The translations under genes were made by a program, and so were the position numbers. Positions 3,701-64,000 of a DNA stretch of 64,000 nucleotides are shown here, piece after piece. How positions within the stretch are numbered: the stretch's first letter is position 1; every line of letters begins with the position of its first letter. Under the pieces are notes generated by a model. It was not told where the DNA came from, did no database searches, and saw only the letters and a program-made list of their open reading frames with translations. Location of the stretch: contig NC_087250.1 in assembly GCF_037042905.1 (NCBI RefSeq), forward strand, positions 26,538,001 through 26,602,000. The letters are read 5' to 3'. The DNA comes from Lytechinus pictus (lineage: Eukaryota).

Positions 3701-6700
3701 GAAGTTTACTGGGAACCCCGGAAGAAGAGAATAGAAGAGATAGATATAATAAGATAAGATTGATAGGTAGAAAATGAGAAGGAATGGTTGATCAAGAAGA
3801 TAAATATGACATGAAACACGGGTGAAAAGTGAAACCCTACACTGCAAAAAAAAAACGCCAGTGTTAATTTACACCAGCCTGGTATCTACATCGGTCCACA
3901 CCAGAGACGTGTTGAAGCAACACCGGTTTTTGCGTTAGTCTAACACCAATTTGGCATTTAAGCAACACCTATTAGTGTTAAACCAATATCGATTTGACTC
4001 TTAAATGGTGTTGTTTCAACGCTTCTCTGGTGTGGGGCCCATAAAGATACCAGGCTGGTGTTCGTTTTTGCAGTGTATAGATGGATAACTTACCACCGAC
4101 ATAACGGCAGGTTGAGGGGTAAGCCTCTTAGCATGCACCATTCCTAAGATCTGGGCAACATGGCCTTCCCTTGCTGCTACGAAGGGTAACCTGTCCCAAT
4201 CAAAATTCATATAAACTTTCTCATACATGAAATAATGTATAATCCATACTTTCATTTCATTTCTTGGTTTTTGCAACATTTTTCATAACAAAATTCTGGA
4301 CAAGAAAATACATATCTGAAATTTGACATCAAGATAATGAACAATAGTTTGGTATATAAATCATTAAAATATATCATACATAAATTAACAATGTTAAGCG
4401 GTATTTTCTGTTAAACAATAAATAGGATGGTTGCAAGGGTCGTCACAAAAGCAAAGTTTGAAAACGTAACACCCCTGGAAAATAGCCCAAATAAATAATA
4501 TCTGTCATGAAACGTGCAAGACTATTCTAGAAAGTGGTCTGTCTACTCTTGACATTGTTTATTTTTGTTATAATTGACTATTATTTCATTTTTTTATTAC
4601 AGCCTTTAGGCTTGTATTTATGCATATTCCAACTGGAAGAGAGATTACATGCCGACTTGATATTAGTACGTCATTCATTTACGATAGTTGCGTATGACTT
4701 CCAAACAATAATTCTTCAAAATAATACTAGGATCGTGACACATTTTTTTTTACTTTCTGTACGCGATTCCATTAAAAAAATATGTGGGACCTTCCAAATA
4801 TTATTTGTCTCTTCTTTTTATACAGATTTCATGGAAACTTTTGAGACTCTCAAATGATTATCTCAGTGGGTAGCCCTGTCAAGAACTGCATAAACTTGAG
4901 CAGTTCATGCAGTGACAGAAAAATTGAGAAAATGGGAGTCGGATTTGAAAATAGGGTCGTTTAAAGTAGGCCTATTATGAAATCGCCTTCGTACAACTCG
5001 TACATCATCCCTTTGGAACAAACAAATTCATCCTTGATACTCTATTAAAATGGTTGGGAAATACATGTCAAGTTAGTCAACCATGATATATATCAATAAA
5101 TGTGTTATTATCATCAAGTAAATCTGCCCTCCACGTACCTGCCAGCTGTAAACAGGGTAGCGTTCGCTGCTCCAAAGGTCGACATACACACACCAAGCGG
5201 AACGATCCAAGCGAAAGATCCCATTGTGCGGTGTGCAAAAGTCTGTGAAGAGGACAATAACATGGATTTCAATTTATTTGAAGAGAATGCCCTGCACTAT
5301 TTAATGCGGTGACTCTGAAATATGTACACAATAAGCTGTATATCGACATGATAATTAGTGTAAACTTGCACCGCATTCCGACGTCGCGTCCTGGAATAGC
5401 ATTCCTTTATAAACACACACTTTTGCATTCCCTTGTCAAAATGGAATCACATTGTGTGGGGAAGCTTTGTTATGGAGACAAAAAGTGCAGTCTGGAAATG
5501 TGTATTCATTTCCTTTTCAATAAATTTGTAAATTAAGTCGATTTGGAGTTGAGGAAAAGGTAAATTATGACAAATAAGCAGAGACGGTGACTATTGTAGT
5601 TGCAGGTGTCGCCGAATAGAGAGAGACTCCCCAGAATAGCACTGTTAATGAATATAATTATGATGTGTATGTCAATACAGTGTACGGATAACATGACTTG
5701 ACTAAACGAATTCACACTGAAGTATCACAATGCCAGCGAAAAAGTGTTCCCTTGACAAATTTTATTACTCTAGAAATACACTGCGCTTGTAATTTATGAA
5801 AATATATCAACAAACAACTATGCTCAACTTGTTTTAGGATTCTAGGATTTCCAATTATCTAAATTATTTGGGGCGTACCGTTTTGTCCTACTTTTGATAT
5901 GTTGTTCAGAAACCTGGTATGTATGAAGATATCCCGTACTTTACTCATTTTTATTTTATTTTAGAAAGGTTTATTATTCATATAACAAAATAATTATTCT
6001 ATTATACATATGATCATCCAATTTTCTCCTAATCACATAAATAAATTGAATAAAATGGTCGGGATGTTCATTTTACACCAGAGCGGACGCTATATATGAA
6101 CACACCAGAGAAGTTTTAAAACAATACCATTTGGTTTTGGGCTTAAACCAGTTAAGGCCTGGTCACACCGCCCGAACTGTTTGGGAGCGTTCCTTGAACG
6201 GTAGGGAGAAAAGGCCGAATTTCGACAACCCTCCTCACCGCGCACAAAATGGAAACAAATACACGGGCGCTGCCTTAGCGGTGCATCGCTGAAGCTGGCG
6301 TTGCTTTAGCGAACGGTAGCCAGCGGTAGCTTGCGTTGGTTTAGCGATGACGCGAGCGTTGATAGATCGACGTTCTGCGCATGAGGGCGTTGGCTATGCA
6401 GGGGTTTAAAGTTGGTTTAGCGGTGACGCGAGCGTTGATAGAACGACGTTCTGCACATGAGGGTTTAAAGTTGGTTAAGCGGTATACCGCTTTTGACAAC
6501 AGAGCTGAACGAATTTCTTGATAGAAGTTCTGATACATTCAAAATGAGCTCTTGATCAATTTCTCCCCGTATTCATAGCCAAATAGTGGTCCCGCTCCTC
6601 CACACCAACGACAGAACAAAGTTCATCACCGCAATGGATCTCTACTTCAACGCCTGACACCGTTTCAGCTATCCCGTGACCGCTCGTAAAACGCTTACAA

Positions 6701-9700
6701 CCGCTCCATCAAAGTTTGGGCAACGTTTAATCACCGCCTGGCAAAGCTGGCGAAGCAGCGGTCGTCCAGCGTTCAAGATTTCTGCGTTGGCCTAGCGGAC
6801 CCAAGCGTTCACGAAATAGCGTATAGCGGTGCCAAACTTTGACAGGGCGTTGTTGGAGCGGTGGTGAACTGTGCCGGAGCGGAAAATTGCCCGCTCCTCA
6901 CCGCTCAAAATATTTTGTGCAGCTCAAAACTTTCAGAGCGGTAGGAGGGACCATCAGCGGTGGCTGATTGTACACAGTGTTAACGGGGGACAACTTCTGA
7001 TAAACGGTGGTGAACGGTAACGAGCGGTGGTGAATTTTGTTCACCGCTCCAGGAACGCTCCAGCAAATTTCTGGCGGTATGTTCAGGCCTTTAAGGTGTT
7101 TATAGAATAGTATTGAAATATCATCACTTTGATTTCCAACTGCTGTTCCAACGCTTTTCTGGTGTGGTCATATATAGATTCCGGGCTTGTGTTAAATCAA
7201 CACCGGAGTTTTTGCAGTGAAGTATACTTACGACAGCAACTGCTTTTGCTGCAAGCATCTCATCTGGAGTAATAACGGTGAAGTATGAGATATTCATGGC
7301 AATATATACAAGAGCGACGAAGGGGATGCCGACCAGCAAAGAAATCGGAAGATTTCTGAGGGGAAAAACATATCAATGGGTAATTTAAAGAATTCAGGCA
7401 AAAGGAAGGACAATTATGCAAGCAAATCGATAGTAGACCTATCCAACTCGTGGACCATTCTCCTTTAATAATATCAGAAATATATACTCTAAAATACGCT
7501 AATTTTACTGGGTGTTATATTAGAAAAAACATATCGCTTTGTATTTTATTTTACAGAGCAAGATAAATAATCAAACTATACCGCATTTTCTAAGTAGAGG
7601 TGGTGATTAAGACGTTTATCTCTAGTGGTTCTTTTCTTTATATATACTGTAAATTCGATGTAAGAACCTATGTTAAGCATAAATAAATATCTGAAGTTAT
7701 AAACAATGAAAGCTTACCTTCGTGGGTTTTTAATCTCTTCAGTCAATGAATTTAGGAAACCCCTGAATCACACAAACAAAAAAGAAACAATGAAAACAAA
7801 ATAAAACAAATATTGAGTAATAAGCTCCTACTATTGCAAATTACCAGAAAATACTGTACATGTTTGTATTCGTTCATAAAATCTTTTAGGTTAAAGTTAT
7901 TTGGATATTAAACATCACGTTTTGCGCAATGTTTCTTGATTCAAAAGTAGTTACAGCAAGGAATAAAAGTACTAGTCACTTTATAAAAAAATTAAAAATG
8001 ATACTATGCACTGCTAGCCGTTCATTATCATTATTATTCACTTTTTTGTGGTTACTTACCATCCTTCATACGCCCAAAGTCCTTGATAAAAGGCTAAGGC
8101 ATAAGACAGTCCATTGGGCGAACTATTCATGAACGACGTTTTGGGTGTAATGAACTCCGTATTGCCTGGTTATGAAATATTTTAGAGAAAAATAAAAGGA
8201 GAGACGGTGAAAAAATATATTCTTATTGTACTACATATGCATCGTCACCATTGGGCTCGATTTTAAAGCAATTCATATTCTATGCATCTATATGGAAGAA
8301 AGTCCATAATAAATCATAATCTTTTATTAATATGCCAACAGATTGGCTTTTGACGTGTTCAACTGATTCTGAGGTTTTTGGAACAGAGCATAATTCAACG
8401 ACCTATGCTTATTTTTCGCTCATGAATTTTGCATGATTTCCATACTGATATAAGCCACCTAATTAATGCATTATGATGACCACCTGCAAAAATAATATCG
8501 CATTTTCCATACAATTACTAACAGATGTCATACAAGAAAACAAATACCAAGATCCGACAACATAAATAAGATGGAATTTCATAAAAACAAAACAAATGAC
8601 AATTTATTGGATAAATAATGTTGCGTTATTTTCAAAAGAATAACGGTCTTCGTATCGACGACTGTGGTACTCACTCTATCTCCCTCTAGTAGCTTTAATT
8701 AACGAAACATAAATACGAACATACTCTACATGAGTAGCCTATACGAAACGTAATTATGAACACATACCTTTTCCAATGTTGATAAAGCCAATGACAATGA
8801 TGATTGCACACACAAGCAGCTTTGCAATGGTAAACCAGATCTGGATTTGATTGGCTGCTTTCACACTGTAGCAATTTATGAAGGTCAGGATCACTGTAAA
8901 GTTCAATGTGAATAGGACCGAAGTTAGGCATAGTACACAAGCTTTGGATTCGTCACTGCTTTCTAAATAGTATGGTGTAGCTTTTAATGTAATGACGGAA
9001 GTATTTAAATGCAATTGGAAATGTTTTATGTGATAAAAATCAATACTACATTTTGATTAATTTCATTTTTCTCCTTAACCTTCTCACCCCATCCCCATAC
9101 CTCCCCTCTCTCTATCTGCTCCATGCCTCATCTTGGGCACTATATCTATCCCTCTCCATCTTTTAGCTTCATCACTCACCTCCCTCTCTTTCCATTCATC
9201 TGTCTATCTCCCCCTCTCGGGCTATCCATCTCAACCACACCCTAAATCTATATCTCAAAATTAAATGTGTGCTAAATCTATCAATCTAAAAACTATAGAT
9301 GAAAATGATAACTACTCACATAGCGCCATCATCGCGAATATCCTTGCAACCAGGTCGTTGTCATAGCAATCGCTATTTGTGATGTACTCCGCGGTGTAGG
9401 TTCCCATGATGAGGCAGACGATGGCAACGGTTGATGGGCGTATCACCAGGATAAAAGTCCAGGAGAAAAGGAAGGCCGGTAGAGCACCCATGCACTCCAG
9501 GAGATAGGCGTACTCTCCGCCCGATTTAGGGATCATTGTGCCCAGCTCAGCGTAGCAAAGGGAACCTTGGATGATATGGGGCAAACCATGATTATAATAC
9601 TACTAATAACGATATAATGACGATGATGATATAATAACAGTGATCACACATGTATTAAGATTAATGATAATAATGATAACGACAATTAATAATAACAGTA

Positions 9701-54096: not shown

Positions 54097-55553
54097 CACT
54101 GGCGTAAATCCGTGTTGATGGGTGGGGGGAATGACTGAAATATTTTTGGATTTTTTGCAATCGTGTTTTTAGATATGCAAGGAATTGTCATTGATATGTC
54201 CACAGTGACGTACCGTGGGTCACGGCATTGTGGAGGGGCGGGCACCAGCAAAATTTTTGAATCACTAAGTGAGTGCGCTAAGTTGCCAGTTATACTGACC
54301 TAATAGAGACATTTTAAAGACAATGTCATTAAACGGATATGTAGCTCACTGATCAAATAATGCGAGCGCGAAGCGCGAGCTGAAATTTTTTTATATTCAC
54401 ACCTAAAAAGGGACAATATAATCAAATTTGTGTAATCATGATAGGTACCTGTCTCGCTAAACAATGCGAGCGCGAAGCGCGAGCTGAACACTTAGATAAT
54501 TCAGACCTGAAGTGGGGCATTCTAAGGTTTCTTTGTAGGAATTAACTAGGACCATACGTATTTCATTAACCAAATGATGCGAGCGCGAAGCGCGAGCTGA
54601 AAATTTTTGATATTCAGATCAGAAGAAGGGACATTTTAAGGACTGATTTTAGGAATTCATGAAGAGCAGACATATCTCACCAATCCACTAATGCAAACGT
54701 AATCACGGACAGGAAATGTTTCATATATACGAAGACCTTAACATAGGGCAATAACTTTTGAGTCATGAAAAAGAAGCATATGTCACTACATAAAACAATG
54801 ATAACTCAAGTGCTAGGAAATATATTTGGTTTATATTGACTTGAAAACGGTATGTTACAGGATTATATATCTCGTTAAACTGACAATGCGAGCACCAGGA
54901 ACAATAAAAATAGACGTAGGCCCTGGGCAAATTATGTTTCATAAAGTTGTAATGTAACATAACATAATTATAATATAATATAACATTATGATGAATAATA
55001 TAACATTATAATGAATAATATTTTTTTCTTTCCCACTACGTTTCTCTTCCTTTCTCCCTCTTTTCTCCTTTTCCCCCTTTCCTCGTTTTTGTTTTTGGTC
55101 AGCCGATAAAGGGGGGTGATGTGCCCCCCATGTCCCCCGTAGTTACGCCACTGTATGTCCATATGGCAAATACCCCTCCAATATTATTATCTTTTTTTAC
55201 CCCATGATGGTATAATGGTTTTATTAGAGATTACATTACATTACTTCCCAAAGACCCAACATTGATGAATTGGAAGAAACAGGGGTTTCTCTTCAATGTT
55301 ATAATAAGGACATAAGTATTTCGTTTGGAAATGGTGAAATGGCTCTTTATTTGCATTTTATGATTTAATAATATTGTTTTATTTGTTAAGCGGTATTTTA
55401 GGAAGAATTTTCACCAATAAAACAATTATCTCTTGTGATTTTTTTTTCATTTCTTTCGTAAAAAGTGGGGGGGATGTTTGTACAGGCCATCCCCCCCTCC
55501 TCGAAAAGTGGGGGGGATATATCCCCCCCATCCCCCCGGGATTTACGCCAGTG
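54097..55553. mobile_element. hAT-like MITE (nested)
   Basis: TIRs cactggcgtaaatcc / ggatttacgccagtg; perfect 8-bp TSD aatataac. Confidence 0.85.
54203..55153. mobile_element. hAT-like MITE nested inside 54097-55553
   Basis: Ends cagtgacgta / tacgccactg; perfect 8-bp TSD tatgtcca; gcgagcgcgaagcgcgagc repeats. Confidence 0.82.
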
Positions 55554-58187
55554 AATATAACTCTATTTTGTTAGTATTCTTTATTCTGTTTTTTAAGGTG
55601 AAATAAGTGTAGAAGATACAATAAATGAGAATTGAAATTTAAAAGTGGTTGTAAGCAGAAAAAAATATGAAAACTGACAAGAGTCATAAAAACGACTCAT
55701 TTGCAGTTTAAGCATTTGAAAATTTTAGCTTGCGCTTTGTGCTCTCTTGCCTCCCCCCCAAAAAAAAAATCCCTGTAGGATTTTTTTTTTTCAAAATGAA
55801 ATATGCCCTTTTTAAAAAAGAAATATACCTTCTTTAATAATAAAACATAATACATTTTAGGTTCGAAAATCACAGATTTTGAATCGTGCTTGCATCAATT
55901 ATTGTTTAGTACAGTACTAATCCTGCTCATGATTACAAAAATGTATAGAATGTTGCTTTATGGTTGGAATATCACAAATTTTTGGCTCGCTTCCTGCACT
56001 CGCATCAATTATTCTACTCGTTCTCTTCCCGTTCACAAAAAAAAATGCCTTGAATGTCCAGTTTTCAGGTTGGAATATCACAATTTTTTTAGCTCGCGCT
56101 TTGCGCTCGCATTATTTTTATTGGTGAGTTATGTATCCTATTTAAAATGCAGTAATTAACTGCTTCCTTTACTGGTCAGTATATAAAAAAAAAGTTAGCG
56201 GGCGTAAAGTTATTTTTAAGTTAGATACACATCTTTTTCATGATTACAAAACCAGCTCAGAATATTTAATTTCCATATCTTATTACACGACATGTCAAGA
56301 AGTTTGAGCTGGTGGTTCGCGCTGGCAACATTGCGCAAGGATGCCCTTTTAACAATGATTAACCCCATAATTGACCATAAATCAAGTTTTACAACTTCAC
56401 ATTTTTTTTTAAACCGCTTGCTCGCTATGCTTTGTCGCTGAGAAATAAAACCTAAATCAAAATATCTATCTTATAATTAAAAATCACTTTAGAAAGCCTT
56501 TGCTCAACTTAATTTCTACAAAACACAAAATTACTTTACACAATGATCTCATTGTGAAAATACATGTATCTGTTTGCACAAAAAACTCATTTTGATAAAT
56601 GAGTGCCTTTTTGGCGTTGACCCCCCCCCCCATAATAATTTTCTGCTGCCCCTGTCCCAGGGAGTGGAGAAAAACATACGTTGAGAATGCCAGGATCAGA
56701 TGACCGTGGTAATAATAATTATTGCAATGTAAATCGCCTAGAAAAATGTTGGATTATGTGCACACAGGTAACTATATCATTATTTTAATGTGTCTCTATC
56801 ATGAAATTATTTTTGTTTTAAATGTACATAGGTTAATTTTTTTTCTCGCTCAGTTCGCTCGCTCACATACATTTTACCATGTGTTATGTCTGCCGCCTAA
56901 GTATTGTTAGTTCATTGTTCTGTATATCGTAAGTTTGAAATGCCTTGGCCTTGAGGTTTTCAGGCCTTGGCCTTGGGTTTCAATGCCTTGGCCTTGGCCT
57001 TTGGTATTGAAGCATTGGCCTTGAGGTTTTCAGGCCTTGGCCTTGGGTTTCCATGCCTTGACCTTGGCCTTTGGTATTGAAGCCTTGGCCTTGGAGGTTT
57101 GAGCCTTGACTACAACACTGAATAGCCGACTAATGCCATGGTTAACTTCGAACTTTACGTTTAATTAGGTTTAGACAAATGTTAGCTTATTTGCCATGGT
57201 TTGTCTAGTCCGTATACAAAACCAGTCCTAGATCTAAAAAAGATATCTTAGTTCGAGTCTAGTCTCTAGATCTAGACTCCGATCTACGCTGTATCAGCAT
57301 GGAACCACTAGTGTACCAAAGGGGGGGGGGGGCAGACTGCCCCTCCGACGAGTCACAACTGATTCAGGGGACGTGCCCCCCCCCCCTTTGAGAAGCCAAA
57401 TTGATAATTTGTAATGTAAAAATGCAATGAAAAAGACGTATGTCCCCTCTTTTGAACGTGAACATTTTTTTTTTGTGGGGGGGGGGGGGGCTTGTCACAT
57501 TTTTTCGTGGACGAAATATCCTCCAAAAATTTGCCCTCCTTTTGGAAAATCCTAGGTACGCCAGTGCATCAGTAGCGTAGCTACGGGGGGGGGGGGGGCT
57601 GGGGGCATGTGCCCCCCTGAGATTTGATGTGCCCCCTCCCCAGGTGCCCCCCCCAGAAAAAAATTGGTTGAGCAAAAAAAAAAGGGGAGAAAGAAGAAAA
57701 GAAAAAGGAAAAGAAGAATAAAGACAGAAGAAAAAAAAAAAGAAGAGGAAAAAAAAAGGGAAGGCGAGTGAATGAAATAATGTGAGGTGAAGACTTAAAA
57801 AAAAAATTTCATGTTACTATATTAAATTTTTGCTTGCGCTTCGCGCCAGAATTGCCTGTTCGATGAGATTCATATCTTGCTCAATAGGCTGATATGGAGC
57901 AAGTTTTGAAGTCAATATACAAAACATATTTTAGCTCGGACTTCGTTCGAGCTTTCATTATTATTTTTTTTTATTTACAAATTTAAGTGCTCTGTAAAAT
58001 GTCCGTTTTATGGTCTACATATCAGCATTTTAAGCTCACGCTGCGTGGTCAAATTGTTTGATTTGCCAAGTTCATAATGTCTACGTGTATTCCATAATAC
58101 CTCTTAACGCGCGAAGCGAGTTAATGAGAGGTTATCTCAGGTCAGACTAGCTGGACAACAACATAGCCCGCCAGCGGTACGTAACAG

Positions 58188-59243
58188 GTGTTTTACAAGG
58201 ATGCCGCCAGCCAGCCTTCTCCTGTCGACCTCGAGACAGACGTCGGCCAAGTTATTAGTTCTACGCAGAGCCCAGCTGCTGGAAGTTCGGCGTCGACAAC
58301 CAGCGGTGAGTTCGGGACAATGGGGGGCTCCTTGCCTCTTGTGACTTCTCCACAAGATCCGGTCATTCCCCAAATTCAATCCCAATCTCCCCCTTCTATC
58401 CCTCCTGCCCCTGTATTTGAGGGGCTTAATAGTCATAATTTTACACCAGCCCCCAACCCTCCTTTTCCTACGCTGTCTGCGCAGCCAGATATGCTTAGCT
58501 GTGTGTGTGATGATTTGGGCGGGGAGGTGCCTTCCAGTGTTAAGGAGAAGATTTGGAAAGGTGAATTTGTAGAGTTAGGTGGATTATTAAAAAGGGAAAG
58601 CTTAAGTGAGGAAAGTTCCCAGTTGCAGGCCTTCAGCCTTTGTGCCACCGGGTCCGCTTGAATGCTTCGCCCCCAAAGCAAGGCTCCGGTGATCGCCAGC
58701 ATAGAACAGTGGACATATGCGTTTCTTATTTACGCGTCTATATACTTGGAGCGACACTGTATGCGTGCGCGCGAGCTCCTCAAGTATATGGATATCGTTC
58801 GCTCTATTGTGCGTTTTGGGGGTTTCAATTGGCGGGCCTATGACATTCAATTTCGGTTACGTCAGGCCCGTCATCCACATCGTTCCTGGGCTGTCATAGA
58901 CACCGAGCTATGGCTGACAGTAGCTTTGACGCCCGGTCGAGCAGCGTTTTCGTCTTTTGGGGGTAACCAGCCCTTTCGGCCATACGACCGGTCGTTTCGG
59001 CGGGGTAGTTTCCCATCCTCAGGATATGCCAACAGACAAGGGGCAATTCGGGCCCCTGGCGCTGCGCCTGCCCCCTTCCGCTCCTCACCAGTCTGTTTCG
59101 CCTTTAACGCTGGGTCATGCCAACGCACCGCCTGTCGTTATGCTCACCGGTGCGGAAAATGCTCCTCAGCAGCGCATGGCTCACACGCCTGCAACTCTGC
59201 CGCTGCAATTGCCAAACAGAAGCCTAGCTCCAACTCCAATTAA
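58188..59243 (+). pseudogene. gag-like ORF1 of the YR retrotransposon, with an in-frame stop
   Basis: VKEKIWKGEFVELGGLL, SIEQWTYAFLIYASIY, WRAYDIQFR and a C-terminal Cys/His finger CFAFNAGSCQRTACRYAHRCGKCSSAAHGSHAC. A single TGA at 58659-58661 splits the frame. Confidence 0.85.
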
Positions 59244-60813
59244 ACTTGGCAGCATGCTCCCATTTCTTAGACGGCACCATAATCAACATAATGCAGCTTT
59301 TCTGATTTCTGGTTTTAGGTTGGGTTTTTCATTGGGTTTCACAGGCGAGCGTCGCTCTGTGTTCTCGCGTAATTTGAAATCTGCTAGGGAGCATAGGGAC
59401 ATGCTGTTGGAGAAAGTTGGTAAGGAAGTTAGTTTAGGGAGAATGTCAGGTCCTTTCCAAGACCCGCCTTTCGATAACTTTCGCTGCTCCCCGGTAGGGC
59501 TCGTCCCCAAGCGAAATCCGGGAGAATTCCGTCTAATTCAGCATTTATCTTCTCCTCGGGGGGCTTCGGTTAATGACCACATTGATTCCGATTTATGTTC
59601 CGTGAATTACACTTCATTTGACAAGGCGGTTGATCTCGTTGCTCGCTTGGGAGCTAGTGCTCTCATGGGAAAAACAGATATAAAATCCGCTTTACGCTTA
59701 CTACCAGTGAATCCCTCCGAATTTGACCTTCTGGGGTTTTGCATTGATGGCGCGTATTACTTTGATAAATGCTTGCCAATGGGCTGCTCAATTTCATGTG
59801 CCCATTTTGAGCGTTTTAGCACTTTTCTTGAGTCATGTTGCCGTGAAATTGCGAATTCAGAGCAAATTTTGCATTATTTGGATGATTTCTTTTTCGTTGG
59901 CGCAACACGGCAGGAATGTCGTTCCTTGATGTATCATTTTAAGGCAATGTGCGAGGTTTTTGGCGTCCCGATAGTGGAGGAGAAGACTGAGGGGCCCGTT
60001 CCCACTATCATATTTTTAGGGCTTGAAATCGAGGCGGCTGAGCAGAGAGTTCGGGTACCCAAGGAGAAAGTAGACGTGTTACAGGCAATGCTCATTGATT
60101 TTGTTAAGAAAGATAAGCATTCGTTGTGGCAGTTGCAGTCGCTAATTGGCAGCCTTAATTTCGTGTGTAAAGCCGTGGCTCCCGGAAGAGCCTTCCTAAG
60201 GAGACTTATCGATCTTACTAAAGGGGTCCGCACCCCAAACCACCGGATAAGGCTTTCACGCGGCGCAAAAGAGGACATGCAGGCCTGGCTTGCGTTTCTG
60301 TCCGATTTCAATGGCACAGTTATGTTTTTTACACTCAACATGGGTAACTAATGCTCATTTTCAGTTCTTTACTGACGCTGCGGGTAGCATTGGCTTTGGT
60401 ATATCCTTCCAGGATAAGTGGGCTCAAGGGAGATGGCCAGCTGAAATACTGGAGAAGAATTATTCCATCGCTTTTCTAGAGCTTTTCCCAATAGTAGTCG
60501 GTATACGTATGTGGGGGGCAGCGCTCTTCTAGCTAATTCTAAGGTCTTATTTTGGTCAGATAATCAAACAGTTGTTCATGTTGTTAATTCCTTAACTTCG
60601 AAATGTCCTAGTGTAATGAAACTGGTTCCTTTGATTGTAGTTCTTTGTTTGGAACATAATATTATGTTCAAAGCACGTTACGTGCCAGGCTCTCGCAATG
60701 AAAAGGCTGATGCCCTCTCTCGTTTTCAGATGGACATGTTTCGCAGGTTAGCACCAGGCGCAGATCTGGCTGGCAGCAAGCTTCCCGCCCATCTTTGGAG
60801 CAGCTTCATATAG
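58957..60813 (+). pseudogene. Reverse transcriptase/RNase H ORF, with two frameshifts in the RNase H part
   Basis: RT motifs SPVGLVPK, FRLIQHLS, KTDIKSA, LPMG, HYLDDF; RNase H motifs FTDAAGSIGFG, LELFPI, SDNQTVV, NEKADALSR. Frame changes near 60325 (T run) and near 60528. Confidence 0.9.
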
Positions 60814-61715
60814 AGAGAGAGCATCTGTTGTTTTCTTCGCGGGCGCCCGGCACTCATCATACTTATAGGAACGCTTGGTCTGTGTTTAAGCAGTTTCGGC
60901 AGCAATATCATTATGATATAAGTATACGTCCTGACATTGAGCAGGTCGCTCAATTTATTGCTTATCTCTCCTGGAATGGGTATGCGGGGGCAACAATAAG
61001 TACATATATATCAGGCCTGGCTTTTACGATGCAAACATTGGGTTGGCCTGATGTGACTGACGCGTTTGTAATCCGGCGGCTGGTAGACGGGTGCAGGCGG
61101 AAAAATGGTCGCCGTGATACACGGTGTCCCATAACCCTCCCTATTCTCAAATCCATCATAAATTCATTGACTCACGTATGCATTAATACGTATGATCTGA
61201 CATTGTTTCGGGCTGCCTTTCTAATCGCTTTCTTTGGTTTTCTTCGAGTAGGGGAGTTCACGTCTCGATCTAGACATGAACCCGTTCCTTTATCAGAAAA
61301 AGATGTTATTATTCAAGGGATGGGTAATCAAGCAAAATTGCGCATTGTGATTGCGAGGTCTAAAACAGATCAAACTGGACGTGGATGCTCGATTTTAATT
61401 CCACAGAATGTTGTTTCGTATTTATGCCCACTTCGCGCTGTAAATGATTACCTCGCTCTGCGGAGCTCGGTCGGCTCTGCCTTTTTCCGTCACTTTGACT
61501 CGTCACCCCTAACGAGGCACCAATTTGGCCAAGTTTTAAAGCGTGCCATTAGTTTTTGCGGGCTACCCGTTGCTCATTTCTCTTCCCATTCTTTCCGTAT
61601 TGGGGCGGCAACTTCTGCAGCCATGGCAGGTGTTCCCGATGTTTGCATTCAAAATATGGGGCGCTGGGCTTCCAACACACACAGATTGTATATTCGACAA
61701 CCTCTCCCCCCTTAA
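60795..61715 (+). CDS. Tyrosine recombinase (phage integrase family) of the retrotransposon
   Basis: Intact ~306-codon frame with catalytic R (GFLRVGEF), K (SKTDQ), HxxR (HSFRIGAAT), GRW and Y (LYIR). Confidence 0.93.
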   Translation: MEQLHIEREHLLFSSRAPGTHHTYRNAWSVFKQFRQQYHYDISIRPDIEQVAQFIAYLSWNGYAGATISTYISGLAFTMQTLGWPDVTDAFVIRRLVDGCRRKNGRRDTRCPITLPILKSIINSLTHVCINTYDLTLFRAAFLIAFFGFLRVGEFTSRSRHEPVPLSEKDVIIQGMGNQAKLRIVIARSKTDQTGRGCSILIPQNVVSYLCPLRAVNDYLALRSSVGSAFFRHFDSSPLTRHQFGQVLKRAISFCGLPVAHFSSHSFRIGAATSAAMAGVPDVCIQNMGRWASNTHRLYIRQPLPP

Positions 61716-64000
61716 TTTAAGCAGTTTTGCCAGTATGTTTATCACCCTTCCATGTTTAATACCAGTTTGTGCACAATTTAATATCGACCTAATGTTTATT
61801 TGTTTTTGTTTTTTGACAACCCCTAACGAGCAGTAAATATTAACCTTACTCTCTCTCTCTCTCTCTCTCGCTTGTTGCCATGGTGACGGCGATGGTTATC
61901 TTACCCGTTAATAGTTCCATGGGCGCAGGCAGACTTGCTCGCCCACTGTTAGTAGATTGTGGTCTTTGCTACACTTATCGTGTTTATGGTAACTATGTAC
62001 CCCCCCCCCTTTTTTTAGAATGTACAATTGGTGCCGCTGTTTCTTTCCTTTTCTCTCTTCCATGTGCAGTTATTTGGAGTCTCAACGTGGGTTGTGTCAG
62101 CATTCCACGGAATCGTACGAGAGGAAGGGGACAATTCACGTTTCGCTGACGCAGGCAGTCCCGCTCTAGTTGGGGGCGGGCCCTCACCACTCGGCACGTG
62201 GCCGGGTCCTAAAACTCAATACATCCGCGAACAGGAGAACACTTGATTTCTTTGTCGCGGAGCGAAATCACTATAGTAACAGCTGTTTTACCTCCGTCGA
62301 GTACTCGCTGGCTCGGACGTCGCGAACGGTTGGAACTTTTTTATGAGCAGATGTTATGACCTGAATACCTTATCCAGAACTCACACGTGGTATCATCAGA
62401 TCTCAAGTCCTTACTACAAACTTCACTATTTAGTTACCAAGCCCCGCTCCCCCCCCCCCCGCCTCTCCTTTATCTTAGGGCACTAGACTCTTCGCAAGTG
62501 GACTGAATGAGCATGAATCATCCTAGATGGTTTAATTGTGCGTCCCTGTTCGTTTAATGCACCCCCCCTTTACCCAGCTTCTTAGCGTGGACCTTGTAAA
62601 TACAGCATGGTTTGAACTATTGGCATCATATTGTGTTGTGGCGGCGGGCTGACGATGAGTCATCCCGTTTGGCGGCATTCCATTTTTTGCCACAACACAT
62701 TATGATTCTTCACTTATTTTGGGCTTCCTGAGATAATATTTTTCATTTATTTAGACCAATTTCGTATATTCCACTCCTCCTGTTATAATGTGAACGGGGT
62801 TTGGTTCGTCACCCGATTTGGACGAGGCCACCGGCGAATTCCATTTCGGACCGAACATTAACGTTGCCTCGTTCACATTCTAGTTCAGGGCCGTTGGTGG
62901 GGCTTCTGAGCACTAGTTTATGGTTTAAAAGTTTTCCTGCATAAGCTCGTGTTGCAAACGGGAATCTTTGCTTCGTAGCTTTGCAGATGGAATTTTACGT
63001 TGCCCACATTTGGCCAACATGACAAACTGGTGTCTTTGTCATGAATGTGGATGGACTGTTTTAATTGTCAATTGAGGAGATTGGTTTAATAACTTTAATT
63101 TTTCGCATATGACACATCTCAGGAGGCTTTACGTTTATGTTATGTTTTGATTGTTGCATTATATTATGTTGGCTTTATTTGACAACACATCATTTTACAT
63201 TTTGGTATACATCATTTGGAAGATGCTTTTCAGAAACAATTTTTATTAAACTCCACGGAAAATGCATTAACTCGCCTCTCGTGTATTTGTATTTGTATTA
63301 TCTGGGTTGAGATAATGTTCCATTAAACAAATGTATTCAGAATGCCCAGATTCTAGGTCTAAATCTAAAACATGCGCGATAGCCTGCATCACGGTTCTTT
63401 ATTTAAAATGTACTTAAATTATCCAGTTTCACATCAGAATATCAATAATTGTCTGCTCACGCTTCACGATCGCATTATTAATGATACCCAATTAACTATA
63501 TCCTATTTATGATTACAAAAATGAATAGAGTGTCCTGCTTTTAGGTCTAAAATCTCAATTTTCTTCCTCTCGCGCTTCGCGCTCGCATCAATTGTTTAGT
63601 TACATACCTATCCCATTTATTAATACAAAAAGTGCTTAGAATGACAATTTTTTAGATCGGAATGTCAAAAATTGCTCGCGCTTCGCGCTCGCATTATTGA
63701 AATATATACCGTCTTCGTGGGTAACTGAAAGTTAGTCCTTAACAGGTCCCTTTTCGATAATGCTAGAACAGTTAATACAAATTTCTGCTCTTGCTTGGCG
63801 TTTGCAGTAACCATCTAGTTACATACGAATCTTGTTCAAGATCACACATACCATCGCCCATAATATTTTTTTTTTAAATCGCTCGCGCTTCGCGCTCACA
63901 CTTTTTATAAGGCTTATGAGATTATTTCATGTCTATGGTGTTTTATAAGAATAAAACTAAGAAGTGAGTGATGGGGGAAAATATAGGTAAATATAATTTC

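What the first reader, a model, noticed from the sequence alone, without database searches (positions are those of the whole stretch)
61870..63080. Long, densely structured non-coding RNA domain at the 3' end of the YR retrotransposon
Seen: no credible ORF follows the recombinase stop, but there is a run of closely packed stems. Examples are 62093-62101/62145-62153, 62160-62167/62173-62180, 62189-62195/62201-62207 and 62224-62230/62255-62261. A 17-of-18-bp stem at 62625-62642/62689-62706 encloses a second hairpin (62643-62669). A 13-bp stem at 62787-62799/62867-62879 encloses further helices. Stacked stems lie at 63004-63010/63044-63050 and 63018-63026/63035-63043. Many imperfections are G-U pairs on the + strand, which points to selection on the sense RNA rather than DNA palindromes. 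Known: some Ngaro elements carry a hydrolase ORF at this position. Inference: this lineage carries a multi-domain structured RNA instead, which could be a packaging or priming scaffold, a ribozyme or a translation element. I do not recognise it as a described family.
Basis: partly seen in the sequence, partly recalled or inferred. Interest (0 to 1): 0.8.

Follow-up and report, generated by a model that had tools for sequence, protein, structure and literature searches.

The report
Conserved stem marks Ngaro repeat boundary
Most of this stretch is ordinary spacer and end-repeat DNA of a sea-urchin jumping gene, but a short stem-loop in it recurs in distant relatives where the end repeat begins and may be the so far unidentified place where these elements start copying themselves.

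Summary
The stretch is the 3' end of a decayed Ngaro retrotransposon of a sea urchin: a spacer (61716-62615), then terminal repeat B1 (62696-63316). All 8 listed stems exist. The spacer folds no better than shuffles (z +0.8), drifts between subfamilies and sits where relatives carry the hydrolase exon, so a 1.2-kb structured domain is not supported. What is conserved is an 82-nt bulged stem (62625-62706): outer stem, side hairpin, exposed UGGCG, U-tract. It recurs with covarying stems in two other Ngaro families of this genome, one of which has the hydrolase. A hairpin followed by UGGCG occurs in 21 of 60 metagenomic relatives. A TGG lies at the B1 start in 11 of 13 lineages against 2.1 expected (window chosen after looking; this family is an exception). 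Best reading (0.55): the minus-strand priming and strong-stop signal, possibly a 3-5-nt site for a CCA-ended primer. No biochemistry or usable RNA data. Earlier scan notes saw hairpins in Ngaro B repeats on other DNA, but their summaries do not mention this motif.

The parts
58094..58201 (+). Remnant (first 108 nt) of terminal repeat A1; the rest of A1 and the leader are deleted in this copy
   Evidence: Matches the stretch right after B1 in 15 of 30 loci and both 407-nt A repeats of full-length copy L045
58185..59243 (+). gag-like ORF, interrupted by a stop in this copy; weak CCCH zinc finger near its end
   Evidence: PF22628 E 0.008, below cut-off
58930..60813 (+). Reverse transcriptase / RNase H, frameshifted in this copy
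   Evidence: RVT_1 E 3.6e-10; one 630-aa frame in L045
60711..61715 (+). Tyrosine recombinase ORF, open; overlaps the RNase H end, leaving no room for a methyltransferase
   Evidence: PF00589 E 3.1e-7; 98% identical to a protein labelled Lytechinus pictus
61716..62615 (+). Spacer: non-coding, not significantly structured, fast-drifting; occupies the slot of the hydrolase exon of relatives
   Evidence: no hydrolase remnant detectable
62040..62069 (+). Polypyrimidine tract plus CAG, like the splice-acceptor-like sites that precede the hydrolase ORF in three hydrolase-bearing families (by eye; splicing not shown)
62625..62706 (+). Conserved bulged stem. P1 62625-62642/62689-62706; side hairpin P2 62643-62669; 3' bulge 62670-62688 with TGGCG at 62670-62674 and a U-tract
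   Evidence: families A and B; family C; metagenome relatives
62696..63316 (+). Terminal repeat B1; its start lies in the 3' arm of P1; this copy ends here and lacks A2 and B2
   Evidence: Second copy about 1.28 kb downstream in 15 of 30 loci; exact start
62787..62879 (+). Multibranched local fold inside B1; significant energy, but no cross-family conservation or covariation shown
   Evidence: z -4.0 (+) and -3.0 (-); does not align to family B
62954..63043 (+). Two small hairpins (62954-62971, 63018-63043) that resemble, by eye, the repeated hairpins in the B repeat of family B
   Evidence: window z only -0.75

Best explanation
The functional part is the 82-nt bulged stem at the 5' edge of repeat B1. 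It is a cis-acting replication signal of Ngaro elements, most likely the site where minus-strand cDNA synthesis starts and later stops. Shown: the motif's conservation, stem covariation and position. Inferred: (1) The sense RNA runs from within A1 to within B2 (recalled model for split-repeat elements). (2) Reverse transcriptase binds the stem. A primer ending in CCA, such as a tRNA ending CG-CCA and pairing over only 3-5 nt, anneals to the bulged UGG(CG); alternatively the enzyme starts on the bulge by itself. (3) Synthesis runs towards the genes, and RNase H destroys the template 5' of the start. (4) After a jump from A1 to A2 the enzyme copies A2 and B1 and runs off at that same point, which therefore fixes where B begins. 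(5) A jump to B2 and copying of the rest completes a circle that the recombinase inserts at the B/A junction. The spacer before the motif is most likely the decayed slot of a lost hydrolase exon, and the rest is repeat B1 with a few local hairpins.
For: Island of conservation in an otherwise unalignable 3' region of family B (67% nt identity in the genes). Across 8 family A and B sequences, 88.5% of cells pair, 4 pairs change on both sides, and slid controls give 28-61%. Family C (46% aa over 103 recombinase residues) keeps the core letters while the outer stem is rewritten on both sides (22 copies among 59 pattern matches, 10 in the reversed control). A descriptor taken from these families hits 15 of 67 metagenome loci downstream of the recombinase, against 2 antisense, 3 coding and 1-6 in 8 shuffles. 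TGGCG is the top-ranked 5-mer right after a hairpin (22 of 66 occurrences, 21 of 60 loci, p 2.4e-5, about 0.025 after correction for 1024 words; 1 of 35 antisense). A TGG lies within -1..+7 of the B1 start in 11 of 13 lineages (2.1 expected) and at B2 starts in 5 of 13. In motif-bearing lineages with a B2, B begins 1 (L116), 3 (L111) and 4-7 nt (family C) after the U. The motif and 5' part of B carry 6 shared variable sites in 500 nt against 90 in 900 nt of spacer. The primer of DIRS-1 is stated to be unknown (PMC7192593, passage).
Against: In this family B starts 26 nt after the U, not at it. The -1..+7 window was chosen after seeing the data, and the lineages are related. Only 5 letters are fixed and the next ones vary, so no particular tRNA is implied; the one tRNA type inspected pairs over 5 nt only. 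In one search other words also hit many loci (TGGTG 15, TGGCA 11, TGGGG 10, from more occurrences). The UGGCG is predicted only about 35-50% unpaired on average, and the median z of 24 instances is only -1.6. The motif is absent from families L049/L050/L051, which have a poly(A) tract there, from 3 of 3 further decayed elements fetched as a check (short stretches), and in strict form from a 29-row clade. The strand is undecided. No compensatory change occurs within family A. No biochemical or cDNA-end data.
Confidence: 0.55

Rival explanations
1. The bulged stem is a packaging signal: the Gag zinc finger binds the exposed UGGCG to select the element's RNA, and its place at the B1 edge is secondary (the stem merely stalls reverse transcriptase).
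For: A short fixed purine-rich word on a variable stem is typical of nucleocapsid sites (recalled). Gag has a weak CCCH finger match. The motif occurs once per element, since B2 lacks its 5' half.
Against: Does not by itself explain a TGG at B1 starts in lineages without the full motif, such as L109, L124 and L132.
Confidence: 0.17
2. The structure acts in the single-stranded minus cDNA, not in RNA: a DNA hairpin with an exposed CGCCA used for plus-strand priming, circle closure or recombinase loading.
For: The minus strand folds as well (z -5.3 against -4.9). DIRS-1 cDNA is mostly linear, single-stranded and antisense (PMC7192593, passages). The strand-symmetric count gave 1 G-U against 3 A-C.
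Against: The + strand folds lower in 19 of 24 instances against 37 of 63 controls. The two one-sided stem changes in P1 are G-U-tolerant on +.
Confidence: 0.13
3. It is an mRNA-level element (3' end formation, stability or translation of the last ORF) that lies near B1 only because that is the 3' untranslated region.
For: It follows the last ORF by about 50-120 nt in several hydrolase-bearing relatives. A U-tract is present, and two other families have an internal poly(A) tract there.
Against: Nucleotide-level coincidence with the B start in three lineages.
Confidence: 0.08
4. One reading: a 1.2-kb multi-domain structured RNA or ribozyme that replaces the hydrolase gene.
For: The stems exist. 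62616-63080 folds better than shuffles. No hydrolase remnant is detectable.
Against: Spacer z +0.77. Near-neutral drift. One listed stem is broken at two positions in several copies. The spacer does not align to family B. The motif coexists with the hydrolase. No Rfam match.
Confidence: 0.04

Closest known systems
Ngaro superfamily of tyrosine-recombinase retrotransposons (order DIRS)
   Same: gag, RT/RNase H and recombinase without methyltransferase; split direct repeats A1-ORFs-B1-A2-B2 (definition from passages of PMC9210276, PMC8547959, PMC4157794); all seen here.
   Different: This family has lost the hydrolase ORF of its relatives. I found no description of a conserved stem or of a TGG at the B1 start in the papers I could search; the founding papers were not held.
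tRNA primer-binding site of LTR retrotransposons and retroviruses (recalled)
   Same: Begins with TGG, complementary to a CCA end, directly at a terminal-repeat boundary.
   Different: Here only 3-5 letters are fixed rather than 10-18, the site lies 3' of the genes at B1 rather than after the 5' LTR, and it is held in a bulge.
Hepadnavirus epsilon stem-loop
   Same: Lower stem, bulge and upper stem; the bulge templates the first nucleotides and the structure also serves packaging (PMC8812780, passages).
   Different: The bulge here is on the 3' side and 12-20 nt long, there is no sequence likeness and no Rfam match, and no terminal-protein domain was looked for in this RT.
Hairpin self-priming of Tf1-type elements, and the stem-loop priming postulated for DIRS
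   Same: Structure-guided priming without a long tRNA site; PMC3601003 (passages) says stem-loop priming was postulated for DIRS RNA.
   Different: No conserved internal complement to the bulge exists in these elements, so a Tf1-like self-primer is not supported.

Membership tests
Ngaro retrotransposon | RT/RNase H plus tyrosine recombinase, with a gag-like ORF | tested here: met
Ngaro retrotransposon | Split direct repeats A1...B1-A2-B2 | tested here: met
   Full set in L045; B1-A2-B2 in 15 of 30 loci; the window copy keeps only part of A1 and B1
Ngaro retrotransposon | No methyltransferase domain (separates it from PAT/DIRS) | tested here: met
   RNase H end abuts the recombinase; no such Pfam hit
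Hydrolase-bearing Ngaro | SGNH hydrolase ORF after the recombinase | tested here: not met
   Frameshift-tolerant profile score 13.7, 32 of 60 shuffles as high; positive control 232
Known RNA families including ribozymes (Rfam 15) | Match at the gathering score | tested here: not met
   Window 57500-64000 and 11 related loci: no match near a gathering score, none on the motif
tRNA primer-binding site | TGG at a repeat boundary | tested here: inconclusive
   11 of 13 lineages, but 26 nt away in this family
tRNA primer-binding site | 8-18 nt complementarity to a host tRNA 3' end | tested here: inconclusive
   Only 5 letters conserved; the host tRNA set could not be listed, and 8 of 8 genes inspected were Lys
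tRNA primer-binding site | Primer covalently attached to minus-strand cDNA at this site | not testable with these tools
   Needs cDNA end mapping
Epsilon-like priming and packaging signal | RT binds the stem and copies the bulge by protein priming | not testable with these tools
   Only the topology is alike
Tf1-type self-priming | Conserved complement of the site elsewhere in the RNA | tested here: not met
   25 elements scanned; no conserved match; an 11-bp match in decayed copy L046 is absent from intact L045

The most novel reading that the evidence does not exclude
Ngaro retrotransposons prime reverse transcription at an internal site 3' of their genes. A primer ending in CCA pairs with only 3-5 nucleotides displayed in the bulge of a conserved stem, and this start point is what sets the 5' edge of repeat B. 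This would be the first identified priming signal in the DIRS order, intermediate between tRNA primer-binding sites and epsilon-type signals.
Probability: 0.3. Interest if true: 0.85.

Novelty: new variant of a known kind. Interest (0 to 1): 0.62.

Why it matters
How tyrosine-recombinase retrotransposons start reverse transcription is an open question: the DIRS-1 primer is stated to be unknown (PMC7192593). A short motif shared by elements whose recombinases are only 30-45% identical, tied to the B repeat edge, names a precise site to mutate and a precise place where cDNA ends should map. It also gives a marker for finding B1 in fragmented copies. The finding as first written, a long structured RNA replacing a gene, is mostly ordinary.

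Tried and rejected
Decayed hydrolase in the spacer: a few words looked like it by eye, but tblastn gave at best E 0.11 and a 24-sequence profile scored at shuffle level in 4 of 4 copies (32, 9, 45 and 3 of 60 shuffles as high). It remains an inference from position only. Novel ORF in the spacer: frames differ between copies and there is no Pfam match. Rfam: nothing. Internal self-primer: rejected. A pairing between the bulge and the stretch before B2, seen by eye in families A and B, was not seen in family C. tRNA identity: the Rfam scan scored 63 of 73,101 candidates and the 8 fetched were Lys. A pattern scan returned mostly SINE heads; one ends in letters that would pair over 9 nt only if it had a CCA end, and ARAGORN does not call it a tRNA, so it was not used. 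Expression: no RNA holder listed. Three RNA runs gave 34, 53 and 22 reads on 6,049 nt, depth at most 1.4 over the region and no start, end or splice signal; no verdict. The single-protein metagenome scan and the viral scan found no relatives. A MAFFT alignment with family C misaligned the motif and was not used for counts. The covariance model from families A and B found family C only at E 0.32 and none of the metagenome instances. The first loose descriptor was at chance level (101 sense, 102 antisense). The check on 3 further decayed elements found no motif. The careful tree did not finish; the quick tree was used.

Full report
Setting. Window 58094-63316 is a decayed copy of a tyrosine-recombinase retrotransposon. 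It has gag-like, RT/RNase H and recombinase ORFs, and the recombinase is 98% identical to a protein labelled Lytechinus pictus. A DNA search of the genome listed 40 matches, 27 of them nearly full length at 85-100%. In 15 of 30 fetched loci the part from 62696 on is repeated about 1.28 kb further on, with the element's first letters in between. Copy L045 shows the whole layout A1 (407 nt), three open ORFs, spacer, B1, A2, a 261-nt unique piece and B2. With no room for a methyltransferase, this is a Ngaro element. The finder's stretch is therefore a spacer (to 62615), a short motif, and the first 385 nt of repeat B1. The window copy ends at the end of B1, as do 13 of the 30 loci.

Observation. 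All 8 listed stems are present. The spacer 61870-62615 folds no better than shuffles (z +0.77), and its stems give z -0.9 and -1.9 on the + strand. Of 21 sliding windows over the stretch only 62620-62739 stands out (z -6.0). 62616-63080 is significant (z -5.8), with two strong local folds. In an alignment of 27 copies the spacer has 90 shared variable sites in 900 nt and 62616-63115 has 6 in 500 nt. Between two subfamilies the spacer differs at 65 of 862 positions, the motif at 1 of 94, the 5' part of B at 5 of 399 and the recombinase gene at 18 of 1,002. No compensatory change was found within the family; of 9 inherited changes at predicted pairs in 62616-63080, 2 kept and 7 broke the pair. 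Rfam has nothing here.

The hydrolase question. Other Ngaro families of this genome carry an SGNH hydrolase ORF about 500-600 nt after the recombinase, as do 19 of 80 metagenome loci. In a quick recombinase tree of 84 rows, this family (A) and its sister (B) are nested in the hydrolase-bearing clade, so the gene was probably lost. A profile of 24 hydrolases finds no remnant in the spacer. A splice-acceptor-like site at 62040-62069 resembles those before the hydrolase in three other families (by eye), and the 555 nt from it to the motif are about the length of the exon. That the spacer is a decayed exon slot is an inference from position only.

The conserved motif. Family B (67% nt identity in the genes) has an unalignable 3' region except for an island at 62630-62705. 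The fold is an outer stem P1, a side hairpin P2 of variable length, and a 3' bulge starting UGGCG followed by a U-tract. Over 8 sequences of A and B, 88.5% of cells pair and 4 pairs change on both sides, against 28-61% paired in slid controls; these are two lineages, not eight independent events. A covariance model from them, run on 96 sources, gave a weak hit (E 0.32) in a third family, C. That family keeps the core letters, has a rewritten but still pairing outer stem, occurs in 22 copies and carries a hydrolase exon. So the motif is not a substitute for the hydrolase.

Beyond this genome. A descriptor fixed on UGGCG hit 15 of 67 metagenome loci with at least 300 nt downstream (13 of 80 were dropped as too short), against 2 antisense, 3 coding and 1-6 in 8 shuffles; other 5-mers also hit 2-15 loci, so this count alone is not word-specific. 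A ranking of all 5-mers that follow a hairpin, on 60 of the 80 loci (short ones and near-duplicates removed by hand), put TGGCG first: 22 of 66 occurrences, 21 loci, p 2.4e-5 uncorrected, against 1 of 35 on the antisense strand. Instances, several picked by eye, lie in both the hydrolase-bearing and hydrolase-free subclades of a 55-row clade, and none in strict form in the other 29 rows. Their recombinases are 30-44% identical to the window's. The folds are modest (median z -1.6 of 24). The motif is missing in families L049, L050 and L051, which have a poly(A) tract just before B1, and in 3 of 3 further decayed elements checked on short stretches.

Link to the B boundary. Where a motif-bearing element also has B2, B starts 1 nt (L116), 3 nt (L111) and 4-7 nt (family C) after the U of UGGCG, and 26 nt after it in family A. 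More widely, a TGG lies within -1..+7 of the B1 start in 11 of 13 lineages, 2.1 expected from local background; at B2 starts it is 5 of 13. L111 was scored as a miss by the script because of a mismatch, and family A is a true exception. The window was chosen after looking and the lineages are related, so the nominal P of 4e-8 overstates the case. For 7 of the 13 lineages the repeat was taken as B from its position alone. A contig from a second organism's run begins at the same B edge, and part of the spacer is not covered there at 85% likeness.

Mechanism. In a split-repeat element the missing ends must be rebuilt by template jumps between A1 and A2 and between B1 and B2 (recalled model). If synthesis starts just at the B1 edge and RNase H removes the template already copied, the second pass through A2 and B1 must end at the start point, which then defines where B begins. 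TGG is the complement of a CCA end, and UGGCG of a tRNA ending CG-CCA. I therefore read the motif as the priming and strong-stop signal (0.55), with a CCA-ended primer on a 3-5-nt site as the boldest form (0.3). All biochemical steps are inferred. Only five letters are fixed, so no tRNA can be named. An internal self-primer was tested and rejected. The strand is not decided. RNA runs gave no usable coverage. Packaging, a DNA-level role and an mRNA-level role remain open.

What is known. Literature searches (listings and abstract starts) showed no description of this motif or of a Ngaro primer site. I saw passages only of PMC9210276 (Ngaro layout and hydrolase), PMC7192593 (DIRS-1 primer unknown, cDNA single-stranded), PMC8547959, PMC6681497, PMC3783388, PMC4157794, PMC3601003 (stem-loop priming postulated for DIRS) and PMC8812780 (epsilon). 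No supplements were opened. The founding Ngaro papers are not held, so an earlier mention cannot be excluded. Earlier scan notes dealt with hairpins inside B repeats; their summaries do not mention this motif.

Verdict. The long structured domain is not supported. The element and its repeat are known kinds. The 82-nt bulged stem is a real, deeply conserved cis-element (my estimate 0.85) with a testable role in an unsolved step of DIRS-order replication. Interest 0.62; new variant of a known kind.

Noticed in passing
L049:6020-6056, L050:5697-5717, L051 before 6489: Three hydrolase-bearing Ngaro elements have an internal poly(A) tract of about 15-33 nt shortly before the B1 start, where other families have the bulged stem.
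   Followed up: partly
window 62040-62069; L043:5205-5231; L049, L050 and L139 before their hydrolase ORFs: Splice-acceptor-like tracts precede the hydrolase ORF in three families and persist in two families that lack it, suggesting the hydrolase is made from a spliced RNA.
   Followed up: partly
L028 and L029, at window position 62633-62634: Two neighbouring copies in opposite orientation carry an insertion of about 1.2 kb inside the 5' arm of the conserved stem.
   Followed up: no
L045 B1/A2 junction; window 63310-63316: B end and A start share about 5-6 letters that also flank both ends of the insertion, set in a small imperfect inverted repeat: the likely recombinase crossover core.
   Followed up: no
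L045 unique piece before B2; L057: A short stretch just upstream of B2 is alike in families A and B, although the surroundings differ; not seen in family C.
   Followed up: partly
L001, L002, L006, L011-L015, L017, L018, L022, L025, L027: 13 of 30 loci end at B1 without A2-B2. This could be B1-B2 recombination or early circle closure after one jump.
   Followed up: no
L117, L127, L093, L138, L119: Elements of the other clade show, by eye, a similar bulged stem with the G-rich and C-rich arms swapped and TGGCG or TGGTG in the bulge.
   Followed up: no
L139:1955-2090: Repeat B of family C holds two tandem copies of a long hairpin unit.
   Followed up: no
G000:C16:22259825-22359133: A tandem array with a period of about 2.8 kb, each unit holding an SGNH-hydrolase-like frame, over about 100 kb.
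   Followed up: no
L045:1195-1800 and 6043-7041: The few RNA reads fall on repeat A and the gag start, with first mates mostly on the element's sense strand, which in common stranded libraries means antisense RNA; several run on into unrelated flanks.
   Followed up: no
window 54328-54661, 55855-56330, 63406-63907; 56926-57102: Dispersed short repeats with a palindromic core, and a 21-28-nt tandem array, lie on both sides of the element.
   Followed up: no
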